The notes: a model not told the origin generated them from the letters alone. 64,000 bases of DNA from an uncultured Candidatus Saccharibacteria bacterium (GCA_964544935.1 CAZJDZ010000004.1:15802-79801); one strand, 5' to 3'; counted from the stretch's first letter, positions 5,960 through 26,873 are shown. Made by a program: numbers and translations.

Positions 5960-7051
5960 TTACCTATTAAGAGGCATAAGTAAATATGTGAAAGTTATAT
6001 CTTGTTGAGAGGTAATAAATACTGGTTTATTAGGTGTTGTAAAATTACAAATAAGAGAATCACCTTTAATATACGGTACAACATCTAAGAAAAACTTATT
6101 ATTATATTTTACTTCTATATCTTCCCCTTCTTTTGTAATAGGAATTGAGTGTGTTACTTGACCAACTTTTTCACTTTTACTATGTACAGTACATTTTCCT
6201 TCTGTAAAAATACATTCAACTTGGGAATACTGTTCATTAAAAAAAGTTGTAAGGAGGAGTGCTTTTTGAAGTTCTTCTTTTGAGAGTGATACTGTAGTTG
6301 TGAACTCCTTCGGGAATAGCTGTCTATAGTCCGGAAAATGACCTGTAATCGTGTGTATTGATAGAGTTAAGGTATTTCCTGTAAGTGATAAAATATTCTC
6401 ACTACGAGAGAGATTTATATCACCTTCTTCTTCGTTAATAATTTGAAGAATTTCTCCTATATGTTTTTGAGGGATAAGGAAAGAAAAATCTAAATCTTTC
6501 TCATTCGGAATATTTTTTTCAGCAAGACGATATGAATCTGTTGCAACAGAATAAATCGAAGAATCTTTTGTATATACAAACACTGAAGAAATTTCTGGCT
6601 TTATATCTGTTGTAGCTGAACAAAAAGAAACTTCACGTAGCAACATATCAATTGATTCTTTTGGAAGAGATCCTAATTGTTCACCTTGGGTTGGTAACAT
6701 AGGAAAGTCTTCGTATGGTGTTGTTTTTATTTCAATAACTCCTTTTTCTGTTGTAATAGTAAATACTCCATTAACTAATTCACAAGTAAGTGTTACATCT
6801 TTTGCATTAAAAGTAGAAATAATTCGAAGTAATGTCTCCCCTTGTAATAAACAAGCACCATTAACCACTCCTTTTACAGGAATACTTTTTTCACAGAATA
6901 ATTCTAAGTTAGTAGCTCGAAGTGAAAGGAGATGATCATTAACTTCAAGATGTATGTCTTGAAGAAAGTTTTGTGACTGTACTTTACTACGTGCACGAGA
7001 TACTTGTTGTACTGCTTTTATAAAGACCTCTCCTTTGCATTCGAATTTCAT
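5960..7051 (-). CDS. dnaN: DNA polymerase III beta sliding clamp
   Basis: 363 aa; MKFECKGEVFIKAVQQVSRA N-terminus typical of DnaN; immediately downstream of dnaA. Confidence 0.85.
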   Translation of the reverse strand: MKFECKGEVFIKAVQQVSRARSKVQSQNFLQDIHLEVNDHLLSLRATNLELFCEKSIPVKGVVNGACLLQGETLLRIISTFNAKDVTLTCELVNGVFTITTEKGVIEIKTTPYEDFPMLPTQGEQLGSLPKESIDMLLREVSFCSATTDIKPEISSVFVYTKDSSIYSVATDSYRLAEKNIPNEKDLDFSFLIPQKHIGEILQIINEEEGDINLSRSENILSLTGNTLTLSIHTITGHFPDYRQLFPKEFTTTVSLSKEELQKALLLTTFFNEQYSQVECIFTEGKCTVHSKSEKVGQVTHSIPITKEGEDIEVKYNNKFFLDVVPYIKGDSLICNFTTPNKPVFITSQQDITFTYLLMPLNR

Positions 7052-7329
7052 AGTACTTAGTATATATAAAATATAATACTAAGTATAGGTATGTGGATGT
7101 TGTGGAAACAGTACAATAATACTTATATATAAAGGATTTTTATTATAATTTATAAACTTTTATATATACTATTCTTTAGTTTTGTTGGGTATATACCGTA
7201 ATTAAAATTACTACAACAAGAACAACATATAGATTTATTATGAGTTTATTCTGTACTTATTCACAGACTTTTCCACAAAAATAATATATATAATAAAAAA
7301 CATACAAAATTGTATGTTTTTTATTTATT
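7052..7329. promoter_or_regulatory. candidate oriC: AT-rich dnaA-dnaN spacer with DnaA-box-like 9-mers
   Basis: TGTGGATG (7092), TGTGGAAA (7101), TTATTCACA (7258), TTTTCCACA (7270) against the consensus TTATCCACA; roughly 80% AT. Confidence 0.5.
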
Positions 7330-8667
7330 TTATACAAGCATTGCTCTTATATCCTCTATTTCTCTACTTAATTGAGGGTTATCTTTAAGTAATCCTTTTA
7401 TTTTTTCATATGAATGGATTACTGTTGTGTGATCTCTTCCTCCTAATCTATCCCCTATCATCGGGTATGATATATCAAAATCTTCACGAAGAATATACAT
7501 AACAATCTGACGAGGTTTTACAACATCTTTTCTACGTGTTTTGTTATAAATATATACATCAGGAATATGATAATAATCAGAAATCATTTTTACTATTTCT
7601 GGAATAGAAATACTTTTTTTAGCACGAACACTATTTTTAAGAAGATTTTTTACATCAAGAAGACTAATAACTTGTTGTTTTACTTGAATATGACCAAGAA
7701 TTGAAGTCATTACCCCTTCTAGTTCTCGAATATTTCCTTGAATTGTTTCTGCAATATATTGTAATACTTCAGAAGGAATTTTTTCACGATAATCCTTTGT
7801 TTTTATTTGTAAAATTGCAAGTCTTGATTCTACAGAAGGTACATTAACATCAACAATCATACCGTGATTAAATCTTGAGCGAAGACGATCCTCTAATCCT
7901 TGAATAAGATTAGGATGTTTATCAGAAGAAAAGATAATCTGTTTATTCATTTCATAAAGAGAATTAAAAAGATGGAATAGTTCGTCTTGAGTACGTTCTT
8001 TACCATTAATAAATTGAATATCATCCATAATAAACACATCAAATTTTCTATATTTTTCTTTAAAACTATTAATTTTATTAAGATTAGTAGCATTTACATA
8101 ATCCATATAGTATTTTTCAAGAGATGTATAAAAAATTTTTCTATCCGGATGTTTTTTCTTAATCGTATTTCCTACAGCTTGTAATAAATGAGTTTTACCA
8201 AGACCTGTGTTTCCATAAATAAAAAGTGGATTATATACAATTCCAAGATTATTAATAACCGCCTGAGAACAAGCATAAGCAACTTCATTAAAAGAACCAA
8301 CAATAAAACTATCAAACGTATATCGTGGATTTAAACCATCATCTTTATTAATGTAAAGGTCATTAAGAGGAAGTGTTTGCCCAATAATAGAAATATGTTG
8401 TGATTTTTTCTGAAGAGCTTCTGGTTTTACAACAGTAAAAATAACAGCACGAACACCTTCATGGATCGTTCGTAAAATACGAAGAATAAATTTGTGATAT
8501 TTTTGATTAAGCCAATCTTTAACGAATTCATTTGGGACACCAATAGTAACTTCCCCATCCTTGTAATCAATAATACGAGTATTTTTGAACCACGTATTAA
8601 AGTTAACTCGAGAAAGTTCTATCTCAATCTGAGATAATGCACTATTCCAAAGTTGTTGATAGTCCAT
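7330..8667 (-). CDS. dnaA: chromosomal replication initiator DnaA
   Basis: Walker A GNTGLGKTHLLQA; DnaA N- and C-terminal domains; 445 aa. Confidence 0.92.
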   Translation of the reverse strand: MDYQQLWNSALSQIEIELSRVNFNTWFKNTRIIDYKDGEVTIGVPNEFVKDWLNQKYHKFILRILRTIHEGVRAVIFTVVKPEALQKKSQHISIIGQTLPLNDLYINKDDGLNPRYTFDSFIVGSFNEVAYACSQAVINNLGIVYNPLFIYGNTGLGKTHLLQAVGNTIKKKHPDRKIFYTSLEKYYMDYVNATNLNKINSFKEKYRKFDVFIMDDIQFINGKERTQDELFHLFNSLYEMNKQIIFSSDKHPNLIQGLEDRLRSRFNHGMIVDVNVPSVESRLAILQIKTKDYREKIPSEVLQYIAETIQGNIRELEGVMTSILGHIQVKQQVISLLDVKNLLKNSVRAKKSISIPEIVKMISDYYHIPDVYIYNKTRRKDVVKPRQIVMYILREDFDISYPMIGDRLGGRDHTTVIHSYEKIKGLLKDNPQLSREIEDIRAMLV

Positions 8668-12641: not shown

Positions 12642-13451
12642 TTATTTATATATGTGCCAATGTGCGGCTGTATTTTTTTCATCACAAAAAATATAACCAA
12701 AATTTTTATAGGTTGCTTTACAAAAACCAAGTGTTGGTCCTGGGGTGAAATTACGAACACAAGCATTAAGAGTCACATCATTAATTCCAAGGTCAACAGG
12801 AGTTCTTCCTGGACCATGACTGCTATGACCAGCTTCTGTTCCCCCTGTTACCTGTATAGAACCACCACAGGTACTTTTCAAGCTTTGAAGCATTATAAGT
12901 GTCTCTGGGTGCATTCCACCTACAGTTGTACATTCAGTAGCGGTAGGAGAAGAACATACTGATTTGTTTACAGTAATTCCTAGTTGTCTTAATTTTTCAC
13001 GAACAACAGGGTCTTCGTTAATAGCATTTTGCATACTATTGTTCCCAGATGGGGATCCGGCTCCTCCTGAAGGTGCTTGAGCGCCAATAGAGATACTTGT
13101 GCTAGTCCCTTTCGTCGCTAACGCCCCTAACCCTATCTCTCCATTCACTAACCCTTTGTTAACCGTAAACAAGATAAGAAACAAAGAAAACACACCAAGT
13201 AGTCCAAGAGTTACTTTCTTAATCTTCTCTTTACTTTGTCTAATTGATGCTTCAGAAGCTTGCACCTGTAGCATTCCCGCTCCTACTAGTTGAAAAAAAG
13301 CAGCAATCACAATTGCTGTAAAGAAGAGTCCATATATAAATGAAGATGTAGCAAAGAATGATATAGATTCCCCTGCTTTAAACGAAGGAGCAGTCATACC
13401 AAGAGCGGTGAGGTTGGAGGGTTCGAGAGAGGTGTAGGATACAGATTGCAT
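12642..13451 (-). CDS. membrane-anchored LAS-type (M15/VanY-like) zinc peptidase, putative peptidoglycan peptidase
   Basis: same 108-aa anchor as 10242-11210; C-terminal SSHGPGRTPVD (H-x7-D) and HWH (H-x-H) motifs characteristic of LAS metallopeptidases. Confidence 0.5.
   Translation of the reverse strand: MQSVSYTSLEPSNLTALGMTAPSFKAGESISFFATSSFIYGLFFTAIVIAAFFQLVGAGMLQVQASEASIRQSKEKIKKVTLGLLGVFSLFLILFTVNKGLVNGEIGLGALATKGTSTSISIGAQAPSGGAGSPSGNNSMQNAINEDPVVREKLRQLGITVNKSVCSSPTATECTTVGGMHPETLIMLQSLKSTCGGSIQVTGGTEAGHSSHGPGRTPVDLGINDVTLNACVRNFTPGPTLGFCKATYKNFGYIFCDEKNTAAHWHIYK
13110..13433 (-). repeat. 324-bp repeat copy B (5' module of LAS peptidase gene)
   Basis: identical to 10878-11201; offset 2232 bp, same strand. 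Confidence 0.8.
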
Positions 13452-13466
13452 GTACTCTAGTATAAA

Positions 13467-14438
13467 CTATTTTCTTGTATCAAAAATAAGTTCCGTTTCT
13501 AGTTCTGCATTTTGAAGAACCCTTGTTGGACCTGCTATTTTAATCGTAAGTAATTTTGAACCATAACTATTTTCTTTTGGATGAAGAGCAAGAAGTCTTC
13601 CTCCAAGTGGGGTCGATGGAAGGCCATCCAAAAACCATGTATATGTAGGACTCTTTGTCTCTTTGTCTGATACATAAAAAGGTTCAAGAGAAAGTGTAAA
13701 GTCCTTCACCACTTCAAATCTTCGTTCTATAAGATTCTTGAGTGTTGTACCGAATATCTGATCATATACATACAGAAGTGGCATAACAGGATGAGGAGTG
13801 ATAGTTATTGTTTTTGTTGCAGTAGTTCCATTCGGACTGTATACAACAACTCGGATATCATCACTATCCTGTAAGTAGTTGAGCTCTATGGTTGCTGACT
13901 GTTTACCATACCCAGAATAATTTTTAAGAAGCTGATCATCAATATACCAGCTATATGAAAGTGTTGCTGGGTCAAGCATGACACCTTTGTCACTCATCTG
14001 AGGTATCGCAGTAACTCTCACTGTTGCTCCGTCAGAAGGAAGAGATCTTCCTTCATAGAGTACAGGAACATAACTTTTAGGTGCTTCATAGATAAGTATT
14101 ACTGACGAAGGTGTGATTGAGAGTGTTTTGGTTACAAAGCTACCATCAGCAAGCTCAGCTTTTACAAAAATACGTGAAGTCACTCCAACATCAGCTGTTT
14201 GAAGTGTAAGAGTATCAGCACCTCTACCTTGAAGAATGGTATTTCCATCCATTTGCCATGTAATAAATGCGATCCCAGTATTAAAAGAATAACTCGAAAG
14301 AGTTATACGAACCGTGCTTTTTGGCGATGGGTTCGGTGGATCAAGTGTTATAAACGCATCTGTTTGTTGTGCATATGCGTGTGTACAGAAGAAAAAGAGA
14401 TAGATGCAAGAAGAAAGAATTGTAATTATTTTTTTCAT
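13467..14438 (-). CDS. hypothetical secreted protein (signal peptide), T4SS-associated
   Basis: MKKIITILSSCIYLFFFCTHAYA signal peptide; 4-nt overlap with the VirB4 stop suggests translational coupling. Confidence 0.45.
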   Translation of the reverse strand: MKKIITILSSCIYLFFFCTHAYAQQTDAFITLDPPNPSPKSTVRITLSSYSFNTGIAFITWQMDGNTILQGRGADTLTLQTADVGVTSRIFVKAELADGSFVTKTLSITPSSVILIYEAPKSYVPVLYEGRSLPSDGATVRVTAIPQMSDKGVMLDPATLSYSWYIDDQLLKNYSGYGKQSATIELNYLQDSDDIRVVVYSPNGTTATKTITITPHPVMPLLYVYDQIFGTTLKNLIERRFEVVKDFTLSLEPFYVSDKETKSPTYTWFLDGLPSTPLGGRLLALHPKENSYGSKLLTIKIAGPTRVLQNAELETELIFDTRK

Positions 14439-16264
14439 ACACCTTTTGATTGTTCAACCTCCTCCTTCATTTCTTGAATTTTAAGAAGTTGAGAAGGGTC
14501 ACTTGTGATAATCTGATCCTCTGTATATGAAGCAACAACTTTAAGTGCCACATGTTTAAGACCTGCAAAAAAGATCCCTTCCCCCACACCGGACTCTAGA
14601 AGTAAGAACTTTTCTTCATTAGTAAGATTAAAAGTTTTTTGAACAATATCAATTGAAGACGGGGATTGTTTGAGAAGAATTTGAATTGAAGAGTTGGTAA
14701 TAATTGGAAGACCATATGGAGATTTAAGAAAATCCCCTACGTCTTGTGTAATTGTTGCAAGTCCTAAATAATATTTTCTTCCACGTTTTGCAAGACCAAA
14801 AAGGAAAGATGCTGTATCATCGTTTTTCATCATGATCCACGCTTCATCTACCACAAGGAGTCGCTTACGAAGATTTTTACGAACAGCGTTCCAGATGAAA
14901 TGTGTGATGAGATACATAGCAACTGGCTTGAGGTCATCTTCCATGTCTCGAATAGAAAAACAAACAAGCTTCTTGTTGATGTCCACATTTGAAGGCTGGT
15001 TGATGAACCCTGACCATGTCCCTTTTGTATATTTTGAGATTCTTTGAACAAGACTTTCAGACCCCTCTATTCCTGAGAGTACAGTTTCAAAATCAGAAAG
15101 AAGTGGTGGTTCTAGTTTTGTAAAATCAGTATCACCATTAATATCTTTAAGTGCATACGTTTCGGTAATTGCCTGATCGATAATAGCGTCTTCCTCAGGA
15201 GTAAGACCTCCAAGCATCACACGAAAAAGTCCAACCAAGTTCACAATGTTTGATCTAAGCACCTCTGAAGGAGATTCATCTTGTGTTGGATGTGGCAAGT
15301 CAAATGGGTTGATATGGTGTTCCCCAACAAGTGAAATATCAAAGTAACGGCCACCAACAGATTCTGCAAGAAATTCATATTCGCGTTCTGGGTCAATGAT
15401 AATTACTTCAGTATCAAACATAAGAGTTCGCAGAATTTCAAGTTTTGTAAAATAACTTTTTCCAGAACCAGATTTTGCAAACACAATTGAATTGTAGTTC
15501 TCCATTGAGAAGCGATCAAAGAGAATGAGACTACCATTGTGACGATTAAGTCCATACAAGATCCCTCTATCAGAAGAAAGATCAAAAGAAACAAATGGGA
15601 AAAACGAAGACAAAGGAGATGTGTTAAGCTTGTTTTTTATCTGTAACAAATCTTGTCCAACTGGAAGTGTTGAAATAAAACCTGCATCTTGCTGGAAAAG
15701 TGCCGGCTTAACGTACACAAGTTTACTTTCAAGAATATTTTTAATTTCATTTTCTGCCTTATCTATTTCTTCATTTGTTTTACCATAAAGAGTAATATAC
15801 AAAGATACTTCAAACATCTTCTCTTGAGCTTGTGTAAGGCCGTCACGAAGATCTTCAAGATCTTGGTAAGCAACATCAAGTGTCGGGTCTCTTACCATCC
15901 CCTTTTCATCACGAGTCATGATTTGACTCTGTACCTCTGCCACCTTTCTTTGAAATGTCTTCATGACTTCACTCGTATTAAGTGGAACAATATGAATTGA
16001 AATATCAAAAACCTTATCAAGGTTAATAACTGGACTTAGCCAGTTATCAGTAAGGTATCTAGGGTATGAAATAACAAAAAAAGAACGCGTAATTGACGTG
16101 CCTAAGTTAAGCGCTTTTGATTGCACTTCAAGTGCACTCGGTGCAATAATATCTTTTAATTGCATCTCAGCAATCTTATACACCTGCTCTGGTAATACCG
16201 GAGTGATGAGCGATTTATGTTCAGGCTCTGCCTTTTTTTTGTTTAAAAAATCAAAAAGTCCCAT
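14435..16264 (-). CDS. virB4: VirB4/TrbE-family conjugal-transfer ATPase (Gram-positive PrgJ/TcpF type)
   Basis: Walker A FAKSGSGKSYFTK, Walker B LLVVDEAW; N-terminal DIIAPSALEV...YPRYLTDNWLSPVI region typical of monoderm VirB4. Confidence 0.8.
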   Translation of the reverse strand: MGLFDFLNKKKAEPEHKSLITPVLPEQVYKIAEMQLKDIIAPSALEVQSKALNLGTSITRSFFVISYPRYLTDNWLSPVINLDKVFDISIHIVPLNTSEVMKTFQRKVAEVQSQIMTRDEKGMVRDPTLDVAYQDLEDLRDGLTQAQEKMFEVSLYITLYGKTNEEIDKAENEIKNILESKLVYVKPALFQQDAGFISTLPVGQDLLQIKNKLNTSPLSSFFPFVSFDLSSDRGILYGLNRHNGSLILFDRFSMENYNSIVFAKSGSGKSYFTKLEILRTLMFDTEVIIIDPEREYEFLAESVGGRYFDISLVGEHHINPFDLPHPTQDESPSEVLRSNIVNLVGLFRVMLGGLTPEEDAIIDQAITETYALKDINGDTDFTKLEPPLLSDFETVLSGIEGSESLVQRISKYTKGTWSGFINQPSNVDINKKLVCFSIRDMEDDLKPVAMYLITHFIWNAVRKNLRKRLLVVDEAWIMMKNDDTASFLFGLAKRGRKYYLGLATITQDVGDFLKSPYGLPIITNSSIQILLKQSPSSIDIVQKTFNLTNEEKFLLLESGVGEGIFFAGLKHVALKVVASYTEDQIITSDPSQLLKIQEMKEEVEQSKGV

Positions 16265-16269
16265 ATAAT

Positions 16270-16902
16270 TTATTGTGTAACTTTAGGAGCCGCTCTGTCT
16301 CCTTCACTTGGATTAAAGAGTTTATAGAAGAGCTCAACCACCTCCTCTGTTCCAAGTCTTTGAGCACGAAGCCCAAAACGAGAAAGTCCTTGTAGTACAG
16401 TTGCTGTACGTTGTTCAAGTTGAATACGTGCAGCTTCAAACCCTGTCTCAATATTTTTTGATGAACTGTTGCCCCCTAAAGAAAGAAGAGAAGAAGGGCT
16501 TGTTCCTTGAGCGCTTTGATTGAAGTATGGAACAGTAACAAAAAAGTGTTTGGTCATGATGTTACTTTCTTCGGTGAACTTAGCTATGAATCCCATATAT
16601 TCATGGATCTGGATCTTGAGCAAATCTTCTTTTACCTCCCCACTTCGTTCTTTAAGGAGGTCCATATATGGTTTGATATTAAGTTTTCTTGATTGCACAA
16701 AAATCTCTACAGGAAAATCAAGTGAATTAAGAAAATTTTGAAACTGGGACAGTACTGCTTGCTGCTCATCTTCACTTTTGAGTCCAAGGTTAAGTGAGTT
16801 GGTGAGCAAGATAGCACGAAGTTCCCCTGTCTTTAAAATAACAATACCATCGCGTACACGCTCAATTGGAACAAACTCTTGTGTTGATAGTCCTTTAGCC
16901 AT
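16270..16902 (-). CDS. T4SS-associated protein resembling the extra N-terminal domain of long (Tn916 Orf16-type) VirB4 proteins
   Basis: FVPIERVRDGIVILKTGELRAILLTNSLNLGLKSEDEQQAVLSQF pattern; stop TAA lies 5 nt upstream of the VirB4 ATG in a different frame. Confidence 0.45.
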   Translation of the reverse strand: MAKGLSTQEFVPIERVRDGIVILKTGELRAILLTNSLNLGLKSEDEQQAVLSQFQNFLNSLDFPVEIFVQSRKLNIKPYMDLLKERSGEVKEDLLKIQIHEYMGFIAKFTEESNIMTKHFFVTVPYFNQSAQGTSPSSLLSLGGNSSSKNIETGFEAARIQLEQRTATVLQGLSRFGLRAQRLGTEEVVELFYKLFNPSEGDRAAPKVTQ

Positions 16903-16932
16903 ATCTACAATACAGTATACCCTAAGAATTTT

Positions 16933-17364
16933 TTACTCCCTATCCTCTTTCTGTGAGTTGTGTTCAAAAACATCAAGTCCAAGTGCAAGATCATGAATTT
17001 TATCTCGATTTGTTTTTTGAATAATAATTTCTTTTTGAGTGTTTGCAACAACTTGATCAACTGAAGTTTCATTCTTTTTCATTTCTGGTTGTCTCCATGT
17101 GTAGACTTTTGCACCAGTGTAATAATTAAAAGCACTTTCTAATATTTCACCAAAAGATCTGTTGTTGTATTTTACAAAAGCAAGTGAAAGAAATAGTCCT
17201 GCAACAGGAATAATCAAAAGTATTGCAAGAAATTTAATTGGCATAAATGTCCAAATAAGAAACGAGGTTCCTCCAGCGCCAACTAAGTAGCCAAACTGTT
17301 TTAAGGTAAAAGGGCCGAAGACTTTATCTTCCATATCGATGAATTGTGGTACTCGAAATTGCAT
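16933..17364 (-). CDS. PrgI/VirB3-like small membrane protein
   Basis: VPQFIDMEDKVFGPFTLKQFGYLVGAGG followed by two TM helices; positioned upstream of virB4 as PrgI is to PrgJ. Confidence 0.5.
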   Translation of the reverse strand: MQFRVPQFIDMEDKVFGPFTLKQFGYLVGAGGTSFLIWTFMPIKFLAILLIIPVAGLFLSLAFVKYNNRSFGEILESAFNYYTGAKVYTWRQPEMKKNETSVDQVVANTQKEIIIQKTNRDKIHDLALGLDVFEHNSQKEDRE

Positions 17365-17485
17365 ATAGATAGTATAACAAAAAATACTAGACGTAGATAA
17401 GACATATAAGATAGTAAGATAAAAAGACTGTTTTGCTTACTAGACAAACGGTCTAAAAGTCTTACATTCTTCTTGTCTTGTTTGT

Positions 17486-18226
17486 CTATTCTTCCGAATA
17501 TTCTCTATATGGATCAACGTTATATTTTGTTGGAGCTACACTGTAGGTTGAGTGATTAACTGTTGCGTCAGCAACATCCTTTCCTTTTTCCCCAAACATA
17601 AAGCTTTTAAGGGCGATCTTAGAAGTGAGACTATTATCCTCTTCTTGCTTTTTAATTGCACCAATCTGCTCCTGAATATGCTTGAGACGCTCCCCTATTT
17701 CTTCATCATTTGGAATAGAACTAAGAACTTGTAATTGTTCAAGGAGTTGAGAGCGTGACCCTGGAGCAATCACGGTTGTTTTCTTAGGAAGTGGAGATGA
17801 TTGGTCTTTGTTAATGCCAGACTCTCTTTTTGTTGTATCGAGAATAGACTTACGAAGTTCGTCCTTTGTTTTATCTCCTTGATACTCAAGTGTCTTTACT
17901 TCGCCGCTTTTCTTAAAAAGTGAAATACGAGCCTTCTCAAGGATCGATCCCTCAAGGTCTGTAGCTATATGGATAGCATCCTCACTATTTACATCAACAA
18001 GTTCTTGAAGGGCTTGCACAACATCATCTGGCTGTATTGCTCCAATCAAAATAAAAGAAATGATATTAGAAAGCGCGATTTGCTTACCAATTGGAATTTT
18101 ATATTTTGCTCCAAGGGTGAGAGTTGCTTGGTCTAAATCACCATTAAGAATCAGATCCTGAACAGCAGGCTCTGCGCTATCAAAAAGTTCATCATGGTTA
18201 CTTGCGATGTACGACGGTAGGCTCAT
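17486..18226 (-). CDS. hypothetical protein in T4SS-like block
   Basis: 246 aa, no motif recognised. Confidence 0.35.
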   Translation of the reverse strand: MSLPSYIASNHDELFDSAEPAVQDLILNGDLDQATLTLGAKYKIPIGKQIALSNIISFILIGAIQPDDVVQALQELVDVNSEDAIHIATDLEGSILEKARISLFKKSGEVKTLEYQGDKTKDELRKSILDTTKRESGINKDQSSPLPKKTTVIAPGSRSQLLEQLQVLSSIPNDEEIGERLKHIQEQIGAIKKQEEDNSLTSKIALKSFMFGEKGKDVADATVNHSTYSVAPTKYNVDPYREYSEE

Positions 18227-18252: not shown

Positions 18253-21105
18253 TTAAGCTTGTGCAGTAGCGGTGGATTCTGGTTGGATAGATGTCTCTGT
18301 TTGAGAGGAGTTAGCAGCTGGAGGAACTGGAGGAGTAACAACTTTGGAAGAAGATTGTACTGGGATAGATGAAGGACGCACTTCTGGTGGATGAGGTTGA
18401 CTGATAGAAGCATTCGCTGCCCCTCCGGCATCAGCACGTTGTTGTACAAGTTTTTGTTGCATTTGACGCTTTTGTGCTACGCGTTGTGCAAAGCTACTTG
18501 TGTTGATAGAAAATTCAGCAGCATTTTCTATTGATCGATTTTGTTTATCTTTTGCCTCTGCAAGAATTTTGGTATCAGAATCTACCAAAGTAGAATCTTT
18601 TTGATCGACCACTTTTTGAGCTCTATCAACCTCAGCAGCTCTACCCTCTTCAACTTTCCTTATACGTTCCTCACGAAGTGCTGCACCAGCAAGAGGTCCG
18701 CCTAAGGTTTTGGTTGCTTCTTGGGAAGAAGCTGAGGCAGACCCCCCAGATCTTTTTGCAATAATTGCCTCTTTAACATCTGCACTCTGTCGAGCGAAAT
18801 AGTCTTTCTTTTTTTCTTCACTCATATCCTTGAGTTCATTTTCAACACGAAGAACCTCTTTGTTTAGATTCTCCTGAATTCCTTTCTCCTCTTTTTCTAT
18901 ATCATGCATCACTCGAGAAAGTGCCATACCTCTGTTACTTTCAAGTTTTGGATCGCTCCTCTTAAGCTCATCCATCTCTTTTTTGACTTGTTCAGTGAAC
19001 ATTTTTTTACCATCCTTACCCTCTTTTTTATAGTTGGCAAGTAATTGACCTCCAGTCTCGTCAACATAAGTATCGCCTAGTTTGTTTCTTTGGTCTTTTG
19101 TTAAGAAAAGAGCACCCCCGTTGTTTGAAAGATATTCTTCTCGTCTCTTTACAGCTTCTTCGTCCTCTTCTCCTTTTCTATGCCACTTACCGTCTGAGCC
19201 TATTCCATCTCGTTCGTACTTTGTTTTTATTCTGTCGGCACGAGCCATAACACTTTTAACACGCTTCTCATCTCGAGCATTTTTAATTTCTTCATGACCG
19301 AGTTTTGAACCCATCCCCATCCCCATCCCAAGTTTCTTTGCGGCTCCTGCAACATACGTGCTGTTACGTAGATCAAAGGTACTATTAGCAACAGAGTTAG
19401 AAAGGTCATACGCACGACGTCCAAGGAATGAGTTTTCGTTCTTTTTTACCCACTCACTCTCTCTTGCTTTAAGAGCAAGTCCACCTAAACCTTTTCGCGC
19501 AAGAAGACCTGCTCCACCCGCAGCAACTCCAAGTCCAAATCCTCCAACCTTACCTATTCCTTCAGTTGCCCAAGTTCCTACTGTTCCCGAGACACTAACG
19601 GTTACCTTGATCATGATATGCAGCATGATGAGCATCATGATGATGTTGAAGAATACAGGGATAGTTGTAGAAACAGGACCAGAAAGACTTCCTAAACCAG
19701 AAGAAGTAAGTGCTCCTGTTGTATGGAATACTTCCAAAAATTTAAGCGTAAGAGCAAGCATAATCATAAACACAGGACCAACCGCAAGTTGTTCAAAAAG
19801 AATCTTTCGAAGAAACTTTGCTCTCTCTCCAAGTACTGGAATAACCGCATCAACAAGTAAAAGTGGGGATGCAATAGTAAGAAACACAAGCGATACTGTG
19901 CGCCCTATCATGATAATGGTAACTCGTATAAAAATAAACGCAGCATATGCAACAAAAGCAACTGCTGCAAGAGCTGCAGGGACGCTGCTAAGCTCACCAA
20001 GCATGTTGCCAGTAGTGTTCGTAGTTGCACTAAACACTAAACCACTTAACCCAAGTGCACTCACAATAAGTGCCCCTGCTGTGTTCTCTGATGTTCCAGA
20101 AAGTGCACTACTTCCTACTGCTGAAGCATAAATATTAAGTGAAATAATATTTGAAATATCAATCGCTGTACGGATAAGTGGATATGAAAAGTTAACAAAA
20201 AGTCCAAACATAACCACCCACGGGATATATCGTTCAAATGTCTCCTCCTTTCCTAAGATATACATGAATCCTAAGTAGAGTCCTATGAAGACAATAGCAA
20301 GTGAGATGATTTGTCGAATAATAATCCAAATAGGATAGAGTGTGTCCGGTGCCCAATCGGAGAAATGAAGAATCCCTACTTGAATTGAAGTGTTAAAAAT
20401 ATTTGCAGAAGCCCAGAGTAAGAAACCAGCAAACTCAAGAAGTGTATTCTTAATAATCCAAGTTATTCCTTCATTGATACAGGCCACAAGACTCCATCTC
20501 CAAAGAGTACAAGTTCCTGTATCTTGTGCGCTAACAATTTTATCAGTTTGTGTCTGTGCGTTAGCTATCGCATCAGGATTTGAGTTAAGGTTTCCAGAAG
20601 AACCGCCGCTATTAATTGTTTTTGCTATTTCTAATTCTGTTCGTAACTGAGCTTGAAAAGCATTGTAGATGGACATTGCTTGAATTTTATTCATGTCACC
20701 ACTTAACGGCGGAATACTGCTTCCTAAGCTTTTTTGTGTTTCTGTAAGAGCTTTTATCTGTGCTTCAGGCGGGGAGAGTTTTGTATCATAAGAATTAAGG
20801 TATACGGTTTTAGCGGTACTTACTGCTGTTAGTAATTTAGGTGCTAATGTTTTATATATTTCATATCGAGCTTTACCCTCATCTGTTTGAAGTTTAGAAG
20901 CAGCATCTAAGCCTTGGTTTATTGCTACGGTATAGTTATCAAAAATTTTTGCGACATTACCTTTTGCAGTGTCATGAGTGTAGTTAGTCGAGTTGTAAGA
21001 AATTATGTTTGCTGATTGAGCATGAGTTTTTTGAGGCGTTGAAAAACCACCAAAAAGGCTTACAGAAAGGAGAATAAGAGAGATGACTACACCAAGTCTT
21101 TTCAT
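18253..21105 (-). CDS. VirB6/TrbL-like polytopic membrane protein with long charged coiled-coil C-terminal extension
   Basis: signal peptide, at least 6 central TM helices, K/E/R-rich tail with GMGMGMG and Pro-rich end; 950 aa. Confidence 0.5.
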   Translation of the reverse strand: MKRLGVVISLILLSVSLFGGFSTPQKTHAQSANIISYNSTNYTHDTAKGNVAKIFDNYTVAINQGLDAASKLQTDEGKARYEIYKTLAPKLLTAVSTAKTVYLNSYDTKLSPPEAQIKALTETQKSLGSSIPPLSGDMNKIQAMSIYNAFQAQLRTELEIAKTINSGGSSGNLNSNPDAIANAQTQTDKIVSAQDTGTCTLWRWSLVACINEGITWIIKNTLLEFAGFLLWASANIFNTSIQVGILHFSDWAPDTLYPIWIIIRQIISLAIVFIGLYLGFMYILGKEETFERYIPWVVMFGLFVNFSYPLIRTAIDISNIISLNIYASAVGSSALSGTSENTAGALIVSALGLSGLVFSATTNTTGNMLGELSSVPAALAAVAFVAYAAFIFIRVTIIMIGRTVSLVFLTIASPLLLVDAVIPVLGERAKFLRKILFEQLAVGPVFMIMLALTLKFLEVFHTTGALTSSGLGSLSGPVSTTIPVFFNIIMMLIMLHIMIKVTVSVSGTVGTWATEGIGKVGGFGLGVAAGGAGLLARKGLGGLALKARESEWVKKNENSFLGRRAYDLSNSVANSTFDLRNSTYVAGAAKKLGMGMGMGSKLGHEEIKNARDEKRVKSVMARADRIKTKYERDGIGSDGKWHRKGEEDEEAVKRREEYLSNNGGALFLTKDQRNKLGDTYVDETGGQLLANYKKEGKDGKKMFTEQVKKEMDELKRSDPKLESNRGMALSRVMHDIEKEEKGIQENLNKEVLRVENELKDMSEEKKKDYFARQSADVKEAIIAKRSGGSASASSQEATKTLGGPLAGAALREERIRKVEEGRAAEVDRAQKVVDQKDSTLVDSDTKILAEAKDKQNRSIENAAEFSINTSSFAQRVAQKRQMQQKLVQQRADAGGAANASISQPHPPEVRPSSIPVQSSSKVVTPPVPPAANSSQTETSIQPESTATAQA

Positions 21106-21177: not shown

Positions 21178-22911
21178 TTATTTCTCTGCATCCTTGCGTG
21201 TATCTATACAGTTTTGATTGAATGTATTAAGGTTTCCTACGTCTACAGATTCTTGTAATGTGGCTTTGTGTATAAGGTACGCACCTTGTTCTACCGCAGA
21301 GGCACTTATACCTTCAGGTAAGCCTTGATTTTTTACTGTAGATTGAAAGTTGTTAAAAATTGAAAGAATTTCTTCTGTTGATTGAGATATATTAATTTTT
21401 GAAATAGTTTCATCAATAAGTGTGATTTCAGTTTGAGCGCGCACTTGATCAGCTAGTAGTTTTCCTCGTGTTGAACTAGATCCATTATATTCTCTTGCAT
21501 AATAGGTGTTATAAAAATTTCTTGCTGCTACAACAGGTCCATTAACTATTATATTATCAGGATAATCTAAAGAGAGTCTTTCAAAACACTGAAGCATGGT
21601 ATCCATCGCAGCTTTTTCATTTTCTATAGATGTAAGATGGTTAGCTTGCCAGCCGAGCAGTCCCCCAAGAGCAGTTTTTTGTCCTGACAAGAAATCAAGA
21701 GGGGTTTTTGTAAGATTAGTTTTTCCGGATGAATCATTTAAAAGGTCGTTAGTATATCCTCCTGTCCCTCCCCCTGTACCAGTTCCTCCCCCACTTCCGA
21801 CACCAAGCTGGCTGCCAATTTGTTGTGTTAAGGAAAGTGTATTCATTGCCACGCCAACAACAGACATGATTCCAGAAGCACTATTACCAATTGTTGCAAG
21901 TTGAGGTTTAATTGTATCAAATGAATTCTTGAAGCTTTCGTTAATAGAGTTTGCTGTCTGTGTTATTTTTTCTTGTACACATGGAGCAGTAAGATCCCCT
22001 GTCTCATATTTTGTGCCATCTATTTTTGTTGCAACTCGTTTTGTACAAGTGGTTACACTGCGAAGCCCTCCCCCTGATTTCAGATCTTCTACAGCTGCTT
22101 GCGCTATCTGGTTTTTTCTCGCCTCAACTTCTTGCTCTATACGCTGAGATCTACAGAACTCATTGTCGCAAGACGTCATAGCAAGAAAACTATCAAGCGA
22201 CGGATTTTGTTTATTGATAGCTGTGAGCGCTGCTCGTGTATTGGGGTCACTGAGATCGCCACAAAGGGCGTCGCTCAGCTCTTTTTTACGGGTTGTATAT
22301 GCGGCACGATACTCTTCTTGTGTGTAGCTGCCACTAGAGTTACTAATGTCTTTTTCTGCTTGAGATGAAAGAGCGGCATCAGTACATCTCCTCTTCTGTT
22401 CCATCGCAGGAATATTTGATTGATTGATGGACGCAATTCTATCATCTAGAGTTCTGTTTTGATATCGTGTTCTTTGGATAAGATTAGCCATAACACTGTC
22501 ACTGTAAGGGCCATTTTGTTCTGTGAGGCTCCCTATTGCTTGTTGAGTAACTCCATTTGATTTGTTACGTAGATATTCCTCAGGGTCTGCCACAAGAAGC
22601 GCATTTTCTTGGCCCATGGTTCCTCGTACCAAATTCTGTATTCCATTGTTAGAGGATATAATTGCTCGTAAAGTAAGAACACTGTTCATAGGAGTAAGAA
22701 CGTCTCTATTAACCTGTGATAGTACATCTAGTGTTGCGCTTGTCATAACACCACTACCAATAACTCCTTGTGTAGCGTAGTCTTTAACCATTTGAACAAG
22801 TGCAGCCGGATCAAAAACAATATCTCCAGCTCCAAAAAGTGTATGAGCTTTGTGTGTCGAAGAAGACGTTATTGCAAGAAGAAGAATTGATGTAAAAAAT
22901 ATTTTTTTCAT
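21178..22911 (-). CDS. hypothetical secreted Cys-containing protein with Gly-rich linker (possible surface or pilus-tip component)
   Basis: signal peptide MKKIFFTSILLLAITSSSTHKA; GVGSGGGTGTGGGTGG segment; 577 aa. Confidence 0.4.
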   Translation of the reverse strand: MKKIFFTSILLLAITSSSTHKAHTLFGAGDIVFDPAALVQMVKDYATQGVIGSGVMTSATLDVLSQVNRDVLTPMNSVLTLRAIISSNNGIQNLVRGTMGQENALLVADPEEYLRNKSNGVTQQAIGSLTEQNGPYSDSVMANLIQRTRYQNRTLDDRIASINQSNIPAMEQKRRCTDAALSSQAEKDISNSSGSYTQEEYRAAYTTRKKELSDALCGDLSDPNTRAALTAINKQNPSLDSFLAMTSCDNEFCRSQRIEQEVEARKNQIAQAAVEDLKSGGGLRSVTTCTKRVATKIDGTKYETGDLTAPCVQEKITQTANSINESFKNSFDTIKPQLATIGNSASGIMSVVGVAMNTLSLTQQIGSQLGVGSGGGTGTGGGTGGYTNDLLNDSSGKTNLTKTPLDFLSGQKTALGGLLGWQANHLTSIENEKAAMDTMLQCFERLSLDYPDNIIVNGPVVAARNFYNTYYAREYNGSSSTRGKLLADQVRAQTEITLIDETISKINISQSTEEILSIFNNFQSTVKNQGLPEGISASAVEQGAYLIHKATLQESVDVGNLNTFNQNCIDTRKDAEK

Positions 22912-23958: not shown

Positions 23959-24762
23959 TTATTTGCTAAGTAATGAAGCAAGTAAGAGCCAAGAAGAAAG
24001 AGGCACGTCTTCAGCGCGTACTTTTTCTGAAAGGTCTATTTCTTTAAAAAGTGAAATAACATCATTGTCTACAAAAACAGATTTGATATTTGAAAGTGCA
24101 AACTTTCTTTTGTGAGCAAACGCTGCATGAATGAGTTTAAAAAAAATAGCCTCATGGTACTGGTTTTTAAAATTATTCTTAGAAATATTTTTGATTTGTA
24201 GCACAGCAGAGTCGACAGTTGGAATTGGGTTGAAGCTCCCCTTGTTTACTTTGTAGACAAGTTTTGGCTCGCCGTAGACTTTGACTGAAAGTGAAAGAAG
24301 TGATTCTTTGCCGTCTCGTGCGCAGACACGTTCAGCAACTTCTTTTTGCACAAGAACTACCATTGTACTTGGTTGGTATGTATGAGAGAGAAATTTAGAA
24401 AGAATAGCTCCAGTGATGTAATAGGGAATGTTAGCTATTAGCTTGTAGCTATTAGCTTGTAGCTTGTAGTTTTGAGGCTCAAATTCTAAGACGTCACCCT
24501 CGATGAGAGTAAGTTGATGAGAAGCGATTTCTGATGAGAAGTTTTCGGTAAGTAATGGGAGTAAATCTCTGTCTTTTTCAAGAGCAACAATAGATGCTCC
24601 AGATTCTAAAAGAGCCTTAGTAAGAAAGCCTTTTCCAGGACCAATTTCTAGAATTGTATCAGTAGGAGTTATTTCACCAGCGGAAACAATCTGCATACGA
24701 GCAGGAATAGAAGTGAGGAAGTTCTGTCCGAGAGATTTTTTTGGAGCGTGGTATGACGACAT
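23959..24762 (-). CDS. rsmA: 16S rRNA (adenine1518/1519-N6)-dimethyltransferase
   Basis: LGQNFL, ILEIGPGKGFLT SAM motif, LIANIPYYITG (NLPY motif); ORF track extends to 24783. Confidence 0.85.
   Translation of the reverse strand: MSSYHAPKKSLGQNFLTSIPARMQIVSAGEITPTDTILEIGPGKGFLTKALLESGASIVALEKDRDLLPLLTENFSSEIASHQLTLIEGDVLEFEPQNYKLQANSYKLIANIPYYITGAILSKFLSHTYQPSTMVVLVQKEVAERVCARDGKESLLSLSVKVYGEPKLVYKVNKGSFNPIPTVDSAVLQIKNISKNNFKNQYHEAIFFKLIHAAFAHKRKFALSNIKSVFVDNDVISLFKEIDLSEKVRAEDVPLSSWLLLASLLSK
24433..24468 (-). repeat. AGCT-heptad repeat inside ksgA/rsmA (AGCTACA/AGCTAAT units)
   Basis: minus strand reads AGCTACAAGCTAATAGCTACAAGCTAATAGC; encodes YKLQANSYKLIAN (near-duplicate in frame). Confidence 0.6.
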
Positions 24763-24818
24763 GGTATGAAGAGACTCTAGCATTTTTTCTCGGAAGATTC
24801 TATCTGGTGTAGAGAAAA

Positions 24819-24845
24819 GAAGGCGCGGCCGTAGGCCGCGCCTTC
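24819..24845 (-). terminator. intrinsic terminator (GAAGGCGCGGCC-GTAG-GCCGCGCCTTC)
   Basis: follows the pcrA/uvrD-like gene on the minus strand. Confidence 0.5.
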
Positions 24846-24926
24846 TGTAGCACCCTTTCCATTATTTGTGTGATGTATTTGTCTGACATCTGTCAGCGAA
24901 GCGGTCTATGTTCTCTTGTCTATATT

Positions 24927-26873
24927 CTAAATATACACTATAGCCCCACCATTTTGTTTGTAGTAGAGGTCATGATGAAGAGCTATGTTATCATCTAGAT
25001 CTTCCAAGAATTCACTCGGAGCATTGATCTGTTTTTGTCCGAAAATTGTTCGAAGTTCAGCATACGAAAGATAGAGTTGTTTACGAGCGCGAGTAACTGC
25101 TACATAAAAGAGTCTACGCTCCTCCTCCTCCTCCTCCTTGCTTCGTTTACGATTACCAATATTTTTATGAGGGAAAAGATCTTGTTCAAGTCCTACAATA
25201 AATACATGATTAAATTCCAATCCTTTACTTGCATGTACGGTCATCAAACGTACACCATTTTTTTCTGCAGTGTCATTGTCTTGGTCTGACTGAAGAGAAG
25301 TTTCTTCAAGAAATTGTGTGAGAGCTTCCATGCCTGCTACCCCGTCATAACGTACAGTAAGTGACACAAGTTCTCGTGCGTTCTCAAGGCGTTCTGCATC
25401 TTCGCTTGCCCCTTCTAACATTTCCTTTTCCATACCTCCATCAACGATGATCATCGAAATAACATGAGAGAGAGGTTCAGTTTCAAGTGTGGTCATAATC
25501 TTGTCCAAAAATTCGTACACCTGTCCAATTTTTATAGCTGCTGCTTTTGGTATTTCTTCGCCTGCAAAAATTTTTGCAACCGTCACCTTTCCTATCCCTC
25601 TTTTTGGTGTATCAAATACTCGACGAAGATCTGCTTGAGAAGATCTGTTAAGTGCTGCACGCAAGTAACTCATGACATCTTTAATTTCTTTTCGTTCAAA
25701 GAATTTTGTACCGAGCAAGTTGTAGGCGATGTTTTCTTTAAGAAATCCTTCTTCAAGAACTCGCGACTGAAAATTGGCACGGTATAGTACAGCAATGTTT
25801 TGAGGGTTCTCCCCTCCCTCAATTAGTTCTTTACACTTTCTAGCAACTTGTTCAGCTTCTGACCCCTCGTCCCAACATGGTTGCACCTCTATTTTTTCGC
25901 CACTACCTTGTGAAGTAAAAAGATTCTTTTCAGTACGAACAGTATTTTTCTTAATTGCTGTATTTGCAAGCAAGAGAATGTTTCCTGTTGAGCGATAGTT
26001 TTCTTCAAGAAGTACAGTGTGAGCACCAGCAAAATCCTTTTCGAAGTTAAGAATATTTCTTATGTTTGCGCCACGCCAACTGTAGATGTTTTGGTCAGTG
26101 TCACCAACAACACAAATATTGTTTGTCTCTGGATTAACAAGAAGTTTAATGAATGCATATTGAGCTCCGTTAGTATCTTGGTACTCATCAATGTGAATAT
26201 ATTTGAAACGATTCTGGTAATACCCTCTGATGTCTACGTGGTCTTCAAGCATATAGACTGCACGAACGATTAGGTCATCAAAATCAACTGCCTTTTGACG
26301 CTTCAGCTCCTCTTCATAGATTCTCCATACTGTTGCAACAATATCCATTTGAGCTGTTGCTACTTTCGCTTGGTATTCTTTTTGATTAACAAAGTCACCT
26401 TTTTCACGACTAATGATTGAGCGAATTTTTGAAGGGTCGTTAATCTTCGGATCAAGGCCTAATTGTTCTACTGCACGTTTGATAATTGAGAGTGAATCTG
26501 AAGAGTCTAAAATAGTCGGGTGGCGAAGTAGGTTGAGTCTGTCTGCTTGCTCAGAAAGCATCATAAGACCGAGTGAATGAAACGTCTTAATAACAGGTGT
26601 GTGGTGGTATGGATTTTCTTTTTCAATAATATGCTCCTCCTCTAGACGAGAAACAATTCTTTCACGCATCTCCTTGGCAGCTTTATTGGTAAAAGTCACC
26701 GCAAGAATATTACGAGGGTCCGTACCTTTTTTTACTATGGTTACAATTCGCTCAGTAAGTGTTTTTGTTTTCCCAGCCCCTGCTCCCGCAACGATCAAGA
26801 GAGGTCCTTCCGTACGAATAGATGCTTCATACTGTGCTGGGTTGAGTTCGATTCTGTTGGAGGAAGTCATCAT
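24927..26873 (-). CDS. UvrD/PcrA-family ATP-dependent DNA helicase
   Basis: AGAGAGKTKTL Walker A, superfamily 1 helicase motifs; 648 aa. Confidence 0.85.
   Translation of the reverse strand: MMTSSNRIELNPAQYEASIRTEGPLLIVAGAGAGKTKTLTERIVTIVKKGTDPRNILAVTFTNKAAKEMRERIVSRLEEEHIIEKENPYHHTPVIKTFHSLGLMMLSEQADRLNLLRHPTILDSSDSLSIIKRAVEQLGLDPKINDPSKIRSIISREKGDFVNQKEYQAKVATAQMDIVATVWRIYEEELKRQKAVDFDDLIVRAVYMLEDHVDIRGYYQNRFKYIHIDEYQDTNGAQYAFIKLLVNPETNNICVVGDTDQNIYSWRGANIRNILNFEKDFAGAHTVLLEENYRSTGNILLLANTAIKKNTVRTEKNLFTSQGSGEKIEVQPCWDEGSEAEQVARKCKELIEGGENPQNIAVLYRANFQSRVLEEGFLKENIAYNLLGTKFFERKEIKDVMSYLRAALNRSSQADLRRVFDTPKRGIGKVTVAKIFAGEEIPKAAAIKIGQVYEFLDKIMTTLETEPLSHVISMIIVDGGMEKEMLEGASEDAERLENARELVSLTVRYDGVAGMEALTQFLEETSLQSDQDNDTAEKNGVRLMTVHASKGLEFNHVFIVGLEQDLFPHKNIGNRKRSKEEEEEERRLFYVAVTRARKQLYLSYAELRTIFGQKQINAPSEFLEDLDDNIALHHDLYYKQNGGAIVYI

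What the first reader, a model, noticed from the sequence alone, without database searches (positions are those of the whole stretch)
16255..16905. VirB4 N-terminal-like domain encoded as a separate upstream ORF, 5 nt and one frame away from the VirB4 start
The 210-aa ORF (16270-16902) has the sequence signature of the extra N-terminal domain found fused in long Tn916 Orf16-type VirB4 proteins. The 609-aa ORF is a complete PrgJ-like VirB4. The two are separated by TAA-ATTAT-ATG in different frames, and the frames overlap only within 16273-16282. This may be a natural domain split with translational coupling, a recent frameshift, or a sequencing indel. The combined length of about 819 aa matches long VirB4s.
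Basis: inference. Interest (0 to 1): 0.55.

Follow-up and report, generated by a model that had tools for sequence, protein, structure and literature searches.

The report
Split VirB4 ATPase: known trsD–virB4 pair
The small gene just upstream of the secretion-system ATPase VirB4 really does encode the missing front part of that ATPase, but this two-gene split is an ancient, conserved and already published feature (TrsD plus short VirB4) of ultra-small Patescibacteria, not a frameshift or a sequencing error.

Summary
On the minus strand a 210-aa ORF (16270-16902) ends in TAA. Five nucleotides later, in another frame, the 609-aa VirB4 ORF begins (14435-16264).

The 210-aa protein is a TrsD/"TraC-like" (PF26593) protein. 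It corresponds to the first ~180 residues of a full-length VirB4. Its predicted fold matches only the R388 VirB4 (TrwK) among solved structures. The 609-aa protein starts where TrsD ends (PrgJ residue ~225, CD1110 profile position 183), so it is not a complete PrgJ-like VirB4.

The split is old and maintained:
- All 78 related Patescibacteria loci that hold both genes keep two ORFs, with spacers of about -4 to 14 nt in all three relative frames.
- Four loci have a whole extra gene inserted between the two.
- Both genes are under strong purifying selection.
- The junction is nucleotide-identical in four independent assemblies.

Frameshift, indel and programmed recoding are therefore rejected.

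The pair is published: TrsD is the most abundant type IV secretion component in Patescibacteria, usually lies next to virB4, and is listed as essential in Ca. Southlakia epibionticum ML1 (PMC12102498). The same split occurs in pGO1/pIP501-type plasmids of Bacillota.

What I add is small. The two genes are colinear and complementary with fused VirB4. The operon appears to have a near-leaderless trsD and an SD-less, promoter-less virB4, so virB4 is probably translationally coupled.

Low interest; already known.

The parts
16933..17364 (-). PrgI family (VirB3-like) small membrane protein gene, directly upstream of trsD
   Evidence: Pfam PF12666 PrgI, E 1.6e-11, 45 bits against a cutoff of 27. The same position is occupied in L085-L088.
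16914..16919 (-). TATACT (-10-like) box ending 11 nt before the trsD ATG; putative promoter of a leaderless or near-leaderless trsD-virB4-orf323 transcript
   Evidence: A box of this type lies 6-13 nt before the trsD start in 64 of 79 related loci, but before only 1 of 64 virB4 starts. Promoter function is inferred, not shown.
16270..16902 (-). trsD-like gene (210 aa): the detached first part of the VirB4 N-terminal domain
   Evidence: NCBIfam: TrsD/TraD profile positions 16-200 of 201 (E 1.8e-7); VirB4 CD1110 profile 2-127 of 752; Mbov_0397 VirB4 profile 103-233 of 894. PF26593 'TraC-like' is on record for the identical protein. AlphaFold2 model pLDDT 84; its top 14 Foldseek PDB hits are all TrwK/VirB4. 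Residues 7-199 align to 8-210 of a fused 797-aa VirB4.
16265..16269 (-). 5-nt spacer ATTAT between the trsD stop and the virB4 start; no SD and no -10 box
   Evidence: Orthologous spacers are mostly 1-14 nt (mode 4) and fall in all three relative frames.
14435..16264 (-). Short virB4 (609 aa): second half of the N-terminal domain plus the C-terminal ATPase domain (Walker A GSGKS near residue 265)
   Evidence: NCBIfam CD1110 VirB4, 378.5 bits against a cutoff of 325, covering profile positions 183-733 of 752. Pfam P-loop_TraG, AAA_10, DUF87, and TraC_F_IV positions 263-373 of 375. PDB 4ag5 VirB4 C-terminal domain, E 3e-40; TrwK residues 286-741. PrgJ residues 225-772.
13467..14438 (-). 323-aa ORF whose ATG overlaps the virB4 stop by 4 nt (ATGA); third cistron of the same unit, function unknown
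   Evidence: It has no -10 box of its own. The same gene follows virB4 in L085 and L086. Only a weak BiPBP_C-like hit was found.

Best explanation
This is the chromosomal type IV secretion locus of a Patescibacteria (CPR) bacterium, located next to dnaA. Its VirB4 ATPase is encoded as two polypeptides because of an ancient gene fission. TrsD (210 aa) carries the first part of the VirB4 N-terminal domain. The 609-aa 'short VirB4' carries the rest of that domain plus the ATPase domain. Both are real genes under selection. I infer that the two proteins associate non-covalently to rebuild a complete VirB4 protomer. I also infer that the TrsD part supplies part of the surface that, in R388, is wrapped by VirB3; here that partner would be the PrgI-like protein encoded just upstream. 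Expression is probably from one short-leader transcript starting at a TATACT box 11 nt before the trsD ATG. virB4 has no Shine-Dalgarno sequence and no box of its own. It is therefore probably translated by ribosomes that have just terminated on trsD 5 nt upstream (termination-reinitiation coupling), which would keep the two halves in balanced amounts. Shown here: homology, colinearity, conservation of the split, purifying selection, fold match. Inferred: physical reassembly, PrgI contact, leaderless transcription, translational coupling.
For: Colinear complementarity:
- TrsD matches VirB4 CD1110 profile positions 2-127, and the 609-aa ORF matches 183-733.
- Against the fused 797-aa relative P0222, TrsD residues 7-199 align to 8-210 and VirB4 residues 36-601 align to 230-796.
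- The 609-aa ORF aligns to PrgJ only from residue 225 and to TrwK 286-741 from its own residue 114.

Fold: the model has pLDDT 84. The top 14 PDB matches are all TrwK/VirB4 (probability 1.00, TM 0.52-0.59, except two 7o42 chains at 0.36-0.38), and the next hit is insignificant.

Conservation of the split:
- The 120 closest homologues are all 202-239 aa.
- 149 of the 150 best cluster representatives lack the VirB4 ATPase part (105-443 aa, a few of them fragments).
- All 78 loci holding both genes keep the split, with a stop codon and spacers mostly 1-14 nt in all three frames.

Selection: trsD pN is 0.09-0.28 against pS 0.63-0.85. virB4 pN is 0.04-0.13.

Not an error: the junction is identical in GCA_013558375.1 and three SRA assemblies.

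Expression: the window's genes lack SD sequences, and 17 of 47 carry a TAYAMT box 5-11 nt before the start codon, against 0.85 expected. The box is present at 64 of 79 trsD starts but at 1 of 64 virB4 starts. SD-like motifs occur at 3 of 79 and 4 of 64.

Literature: TrsD is the most abundant T4SS component in Patescibacteria. 1,664 of 2,272 homologues lie next to virB4. It has remote homology to the VirB4 N-terminus, and a homologue is listed as essential in Ca. Southlakia epibionticum ML1 (PMC12102498). In R388, VirB3 wraps the VirB4 N-terminal domain (PMC9259494).
Against: - No experiment or complex model shows that TrsD binds the short VirB4 or PrgI.
- In four related loci a whole PF05635 gene sits between trsD and virB4, and the literature reports non-adjacent trsD in Gracilibacteria. 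Tight coupling is therefore not obligatory.
- The sigma-70 consensus scan found no significant promoter in this region, so the TATACT box is supported only by positional enrichment.
- The TrsD hit to the curated NCBIfam TrsD/TraD model is far below its cutoff (31 bits against 200).
- The direction of the event (fission rather than secondary fusion in P0222) is inferred from full-length VirB4 being the norm in other T4SS classes, not from a phylogeny made here.
Confidence: 0.87

Rival explanations
1. A recent frameshift mutation (pseudogenisation) or a sequencing/assembly indel split a normal ~819-aa virB4.
For: The two ORFs are 5 nt apart in different frames, and their combined length matches full-length VirB4.
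Against: The same two-gene state occurs in 78 of 78 related loci, down to 53% TrsD identity, with different spacers and frames. The virB4 ORF always starts at its own conserved Met (MG[LI]FDF...). Synonymous sites are saturated while pN stays low in both genes. The junction is nucleotide-identical in four independent assemblies. There is no long homopolymer in 16265-16285.
Confidence: 0.01
2. Programmed ribosomal frameshifting or stop-codon readthrough makes a fused full-length VirB4 from the two ORFs.
For: The two ORFs are close together. One fused 797-aa relative exists (P0222).
Against: Recoding sites need a conserved slippery sequence and a fixed frame relation. Here the spacer sequence, its length (about -4 to 14 nt) and the relative frame (32, 23 and 16 loci in the three classes) all vary, and four loci have a 440-500 nt gene inserted between the ORFs. 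The virB4 N-terminus MGLFDF is conserved as a true start.
Confidence: 0.01
3. TrsD is an independent accessory T4SS protein, a diverged duplicate of the VirB4 N-terminus with its own role such as regulator or adaptor. It is not the missing piece of the ATPase, which would work without it.
For: The literature assigns TrsD no function. TrsD evolves about twice as fast as virB4. Some homologues carry long disordered C-terminal tails or N-terminal TM helices. Genes can be inserted between the pair.
Against: The short VirB4 lacks exactly the segment that TrsD supplies (profile positions 2-127 against 183-733; PrgJ from residue 225). There is thus no second copy of that segment, as a duplication would leave. 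The fused relative is colinear with the pair. The pair co-occurs in all 78 loci. A TrsD homologue is reported as essential in Ca. S. epibionticum ML1, as other T4SS genes are.
Confidence: 0.1

Closest known systems
TrsD homologues of the Patescibacteria T4SS (Quinonero-Coronel et al. 2025, Microb Genom, PMC12102498)
   Same: Same protein family and the same context: prgI-trsD-virB4 on the chromosome near dnaA, dnaN and ksgA, as in the window. The paper reports 2,272 TrsD homologues, 1,664 of them next to virB4, with remote homology to the VirB4 N-terminal portion, and a homologue listed as essential in Ca. Southlakia epibionticum ML1.
   Different: Nothing substantive; the window locus is one more example. 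The paper assigns no function. In the passages I read it does not state that the accompanying VirB4 is N-terminally truncated and complemented by TrsD. That complementarity is shown here.
TrsD/TraD of pGO1/pSK41/pIP501-type conjugative plasmids of Bacillota (NCBIfam NF041427), with TrsE/TraE as the short VirB4
   Same: A ~200-220-aa protein is encoded immediately upstream of a ~620-670-aa VirB4 and downstream of a small VirB3-like gene. In pWCFS103, trsD (219 aa) is followed after 11 nt by a 672-aa DUF87 ATPase. A Pontibacillus plasmid and C. perfringens pJFP838A show the same order. The window-derived TrsD profile hits these proteins at E 1e-16 to 5e-50.
   Different: Identity is only 25-29%, and the score against the curated model is 31 bits against a cutoff of 200. 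The Pontibacillus and C. perfringens TrsD-like proteins examined have an N-terminal transmembrane helix that the window protein lacks. The plasmid systems are conjugative and carry a relaxase. The window locus is chromosomal, next to oriC.
N-terminal domain of full-length VirB4 (TrwK of R388, PDB 7O41/7O43/8RTD; PrgJ of pCF10; TraC of F)
   Same: Same fold by structure search and sequence-profile homology to the first ~130 positions of VirB4 models. In R388 this domain mediates VirB4 dimerisation and is wrapped by VirB3.
   Different: Here the first part of the domain is a separate polypeptide. Sequence identity to TrwK is ~15%.

Membership tests
TrsD/TraD family conjugative transfer protein (NCBIfam NF041427) | Whole-protein score above the curated cutoff (200 bits) | tested here: not met
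   31.2 bits, E 1.8e-7, although the alignment spans profile positions 16-200 of 201. This makes it a distant relative, not a member of the curated subfamily.
TrsD/TraD family conjugative transfer protein (NCBIfam NF041427) | A ~200-aa protein encoded between a VirB3-like gene and a short (~600-670 aa) VirB4 | tested here: met
   Window order is prgI (16933-17364), trsD (16270-16902), virB4 (14435-16264). pWCFS103 has the same order.
Pfam PF26593 'TraC-like' | Match to the family model | tested here: met
   A precomputed PF26593 hit is recorded for the identical protein P0001, for all 120 closest homologues, and for the gene in L085-L088. My own hmmscan of the local Pfam copy returned no PF26593 hit, so I did not reproduce the score.
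VirB4 N-terminal domain (structural) | Fold match to the N-terminal domain of a solved VirB4 | tested here: met
   The top 14 Foldseek PDB hits are all TrwK/VirB4 chains, with probability 1.00, E 1e-4 to 6e-3 and TMq 0.52-0.59 for most chains (0.36-0.38 for two 7o42 chains). The tool does not report which TrwK residues were aligned.
VirB4-like conjugal transfer ATPase, CD1110 family (NCBIfam NF045971), for the 609-aa ORF | Score above the curated cutoff (325 bits) and P-loop ATPase motifs | tested here: met
   378.5 bits, Walker A GSGKS present, and 4ag5 C-terminal domain at E 3e-40. The match covers only profile positions 183-733 of 752, so the protein is N-terminally incomplete relative to the family.
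Patescibacteria chromosomal T4SS (PMC12102498) | virB4 with trsD and prgI, chromosomal, near dnaA, no relaxase in the cluster | tested here: inconclusive
   prgI, trsD and virB4 are present. dnaA (7330-8667), dnaN and ksgA are nearby. No relaxase was found among the 19 neighbouring ORFs scanned, but not every ORF of the window was scanned. All close relatives are Patescibacteria MAGs.
Programmed ribosomal frameshift / recoding site | Conserved slippery sequence and a fixed frame relation between the two ORFs across orthologues | tested here: not met
   Spacer sequence, spacer length and relative frame all vary, and four loci have a gene inserted between the ORFs.

The most novel reading that the evidence does not exclude
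The fission may be functionally exploited rather than neutral. As a free polypeptide, TrsD could act as a separately dosed adaptor that docks only a subset of VirB4 protomers to PrgI/VirB3 in the membrane; in R388 only the 'central' VirB4 of each dimer binds VirB3. In SD-less Patescibacteria, production of TrsD and VirB4 would then be tied together by a leaderless first cistron followed by termination-reinitiation. This would make the locus a natural model both for VirB4 N-terminal domain function and for SD-independent translational coupling.
Probability: 0.25. Interest if true: 0.45.

Novelty: already known. Interest (0 to 1): 0.15.

Why it matters
The finding matters little as a discovery, because the trsD-virB4 pair of Patescibacteria and of pGO1/pIP501-type plasmids is already described. 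It has some practical value:

- Annotation pipelines and readers should not flag this junction as a frameshifted virB4 or pseudogene.
- 'Short' VirB4s in these lineages should be analysed together with TrsD as one functional ATPase.
- The T4SS is reported as essential for the epibiotic lifestyle of Ca. Southlakia epibionticum ML1, so knowing that TrsD is the detached front of VirB4 gives a concrete hypothesis for a protein that the literature lists as having no assigned function.

Tried and rejected
- phmmer of TrsD against PDB sequences gave no meaningful hit. Only the fold search found VirB4.
- hhalign of the TrsD family profile against the single PrgJ sequence gave no significant alignment. 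An HMM built from alignment A1 also failed on PrgJ, although it hit the Bacillota TrsD-like proteins and the fused P0222. The link to full-length VirB4 therefore rests on the NCBIfam profiles, on P0222 and on the fold match.
- The local Pfam copy returned only noise for TrsD. The PF26593 assignment comes from precomputed annotations.
- I tried to build a block alignment to model the fused P0222 as a proxy for the complex. MAFFT spread the TrsD rows across the whole length, so I did not run that structure job.
- The sigma-70 promoter and terminator scan of 13300-17600 was uninformative: 8 promoter-like sites against 11.7 expected, and no terminator between trsD and virB4.
- Literature searches for leaderless translation in CPR found nothing specific.
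- Frameshift, indel and recoding readings were considered and rejected (see the rival explanations).

Full report
**1. Observation**

On the minus strand, a 210-aa ORF (16270-16902, ATG start) ends with TAA at 16272-16270. It is followed by ATTAT and then by the ATG (16264) of a 609-aa ORF (14435-16264) in a different frame. The anatomy is as described.

**2. What the two proteins are**

- The 609-aa protein is a VirB4 ATPase of the CD1110 family (378.5 bits, cutoff 325). It matches that profile only from position 183 to 733 of 752.
- It aligns to the C-terminal domain of Thermoanaerobacter VirB4 (4ag5, E 3e-40) and to TrwK residues 286-741 starting at its own residue 114.
- It aligns to pCF10 PrgJ (796 aa) only from PrgJ residue 225. 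It is therefore not a complete PrgJ-like VirB4; it lacks roughly the first 190-225 residues.
- The 210-aa protein fills that gap. It matches positions 2-127 of the CD1110 VirB4 profile, positions 103-233 of the Mbov_0397 VirB4 profile, and positions 16-200 of the 201-position TrsD/TraD family profile.
- The identical database protein and all its close relatives carry Pfam PF26593 'TraC-like'.
- An AlphaFold2 model built on a 66-sequence alignment has mean pLDDT 84. Its 14 best Foldseek matches in the PDB are all chains of R388 TrwK/VirB4 (probability 1.00, TM 0.52-0.59 for most chains). The next hit is insignificant.
- A rare fused relative (P0222, 797 aa) is colinear with the pair. TrsD residues 7-199 align to its 8-210, and VirB4 residues 36-601 align to its 230-796.

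**3. Mutation, error or a maintained state?**

It is a maintained state.

- The 120 closest homologues (73-100% identity) are all 202-239 aa.
- Of the 150 best 50%-cluster representatives, 149 lack the VirB4 ATPase part (105-443 aa, a few of them fragments) and one is fused. In all, 2134 representatives match at E<=1e-3.
- A scan of one genome per species found relatives in 418 genomes. All of the 80 fetched loci come from Patescibacteria/CPR MAGs.
- In all 78 loci that contain both genes, the small ORF ends in a stop codon. In about 74 of them virB4 starts at its own conserved Met (MG[LI]FDF...).
- Spacers are mostly 1-14 nt (mode 4) and there is one 4-nt overlap. The relative frames fall into all three classes (32, 23 and 16 loci).
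- Four loci (L060, L063, L066, L072) have a 440-500 nt insertion between the two genes. It encodes a PF05635 '23S rRNA intervening-sequence protein'.
- Synonymous sites between the window and 14 relatives are saturated (pS 0.63-0.85). Non-synonymous divergence stays low: trsD 0.09-0.28 and virB4 0.04-0.13.
- The 71-nt junction is identical in an NCBI assembly and three independent SRA assemblies.

Recent frameshift, sequencing indel and programmed recoding are therefore rejected.

**4. Context**

Upstream of trsD lies a PrgI-family (VirB3-like) gene (16933-17364). Further upstream are a 246-aa ORF and a 950-aa ORF. A 323-aa ORF overlaps the virB4 stop by 4 nt. dnaA (7330-8667), dnaN (5960-7051), ksgA (23959-24783) and a UvrD-like helicase flank the cluster. 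This is a chromosomal, origin-proximal T4SS locus, as described for Patescibacteria.

**5. How it probably works**

*Established from the literature.* In R388 the VirB4 N-terminal domain (residues 15-400) mediates VirB4 dimerisation and is wrapped by VirB3 (PMC9259494).

*Inference.* TrsD and the short VirB4 reassemble non-covalently into a full VirB4 protomer. The TrsD part would contribute to the contact with the PrgI/VirB3-like protein.

*Expression.*
- The window's genes have essentially no Shine-Dalgarno motifs.
- 17 of 47 ORFs carry a TATACT-type -10 box ending 5-11 nt before the start codon, against 0.85 expected. This points to leaderless or near-leaderless mRNAs.
- trsD has such a box (16919-16914, 11 nt before its ATG). 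virB4 and the 323-aa ORF do not.
- Across relatives the box precedes 64 of 79 trsD starts but only 1 of 64 virB4 starts. SD-like motifs are rare at both (3 of 79 and 4 of 64).
- The most economical reading is a trsD-virB4-orf323 transcript in which virB4 is translated by termination-reinitiation.
- Coupling is not obligatory. In L063, one of the four insertion loci, virB4 has its own TATAAT box about 7 nt before the ATG; the other three show only weaker box-like hexamers.

**6. Comparison with what is known**

Quinonero-Coronel et al. 2025 (PMC12102498) report the following:
- TrsD is the most abundant T4SS component in Patescibacteria, with 2,272 homologues, 1,664 of them next to virB4.
- It has no assigned function.
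- It is otherwise present only in the pGO1 subclass of MPF_FATA.
- A homologue is listed as essential in Ca. Southlakia epibionticum ML1.

I confirmed the Bacillota counterpart:
- pWCFS103 has trsD (219 aa), then 11 nt, then a 672-aa DUF87 ATPase.
- A Pontibacillus plasmid has a weak TrbL/VirB6-like gene, a weak PrgI/TraL-like gene, a 274-aa TrsD-like gene and a 621-aa CD1110 VirB4.
- C. perfringens pJFP838A has PrgI, a 312-aa gene and a 641-aa ATPase.
- A TrsD profile built from the window's family hits these proteins at E 1e-16 to 5e-50.

The window protein is a distant relative of the curated TrsD/TraD subfamily (31 bits against a cutoff of 200) and a typical member of the Patescibacteria TrsD group.

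**7. Verdict**

The 'natural split' reading is right, and the frameshift and indel readings are wrong. The arrangement is already known. My increments are modest:
- Explicit colinear complementarity, showing that the short VirB4 lacks what TrsD supplies.
- Structural confirmation against TrwK.
- The leaderless-plus-coupling reading of the operon.

Interest is low.

Noticed in passing
whole window; e.g. 16914-16919, and upstream of the ORFs starting at 17364, 18226, 21105, 23866, 12511, 13451, 3477: Genes lack Shine-Dalgarno motifs. 17 of 47 ORFs of at least 150 aa have a TATACT-type -10 box ending 5-11 nt before the start codon, against ~0.85 expected. This suggests leaderless or near-leaderless mRNAs as the main initiation mode. 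Several of the box-less genes follow the previous gene by 10 nt or less, or overlap it by 4 nt.
   Followed up: partly
L060 4315-4756, L063 4640-5130, L066 4616-5112, L072 4631-5096: In four related Patescibacteria loci a ~120-140-aa PF05635 gene (23S rRNA intervening-sequence protein, bAvd-like four-helix bundle; E 9e-15 to 1e-39) is inserted between trsD and virB4 on the same strand. In L063 virB4 then has its own TATAAT box.
   Followed up: partly
L089 544-2937 (GCA_964615945.1, CAZTUR010000004.1): This is the only fused TrsD-VirB4 (797 aa, P0222) among the 150 best representatives. It lies next to PrgI and near rnpA, yidC and dnaA. The linker keeps an internal 'MG' where split forms start, which hints at a secondary re-fusion. 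It is known from a single contig, so an assembly artefact is not excluded.
   Followed up: partly
P0202, P0216, P0177, P0168 (TrsD homologues of 378-443 aa): Some standalone TrsD homologues carry 150-230-residue low-complexity tails, rich in P, Q, T, A and E, after the conserved ~200-aa domain.
   Followed up: no
L082 4884-5705; L083 4872-5807: Bacillota TrsD-like proteins (Pontibacillus 274 aa, C. perfringens 312 aa) begin with a hydrophobic, transmembrane-like segment that the window TrsD and its Patescibacteria relatives lack.
   Followed up: no
window 16244-16264 (first 7 codons of virB4) and the same position in L001-L078: The N-terminus of the short VirB4, MG[LI]FDF[LI] followed by a Lys-rich stretch, is nearly invariant across loci even though the flanking spacer varies. 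PrgJ (MNLFKKK...) and the C. perfringens short VirB4 (MKFGFKKK...) start similarly. Its function is unknown.
   Followed up: no
window 5960-8667 and 23959-26873: dnaN, dnaA, ksgA and a UvrD-like helicase flank the T4SS cluster. The cluster therefore sits beside the presumed replication origin, as reported for Patescibacteria.
   Followed up: partly
window 12642-13451, 13467-14438, 17486-18226, 18253-21105, 21178-22911: Several large ORFs of the cluster (269, 323, 246, 950 and 577 aa) have no significant Pfam family. The 950-aa ORF contains long hydrophobic stretches and sits in the position where a VirB6-like gene is expected. The 269-aa ORF has an 'HSSHGPGRTPVDL' motif reminiscent of cell-wall peptidases. 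Neither assignment was verified.
   Followed up: no
L085 (GCA_013558375.1, contig JACCDG011725915.1): The window's trsD-virB4 segment (identical 210-aa protein, 71-nt junction and gene order) occurs in an NCBI assembly whose contig numbering exceeds 11 million. That suggests the organism was sequenced as part of a very large metagenome or as a contaminant of another genome project.
   Followed up: no
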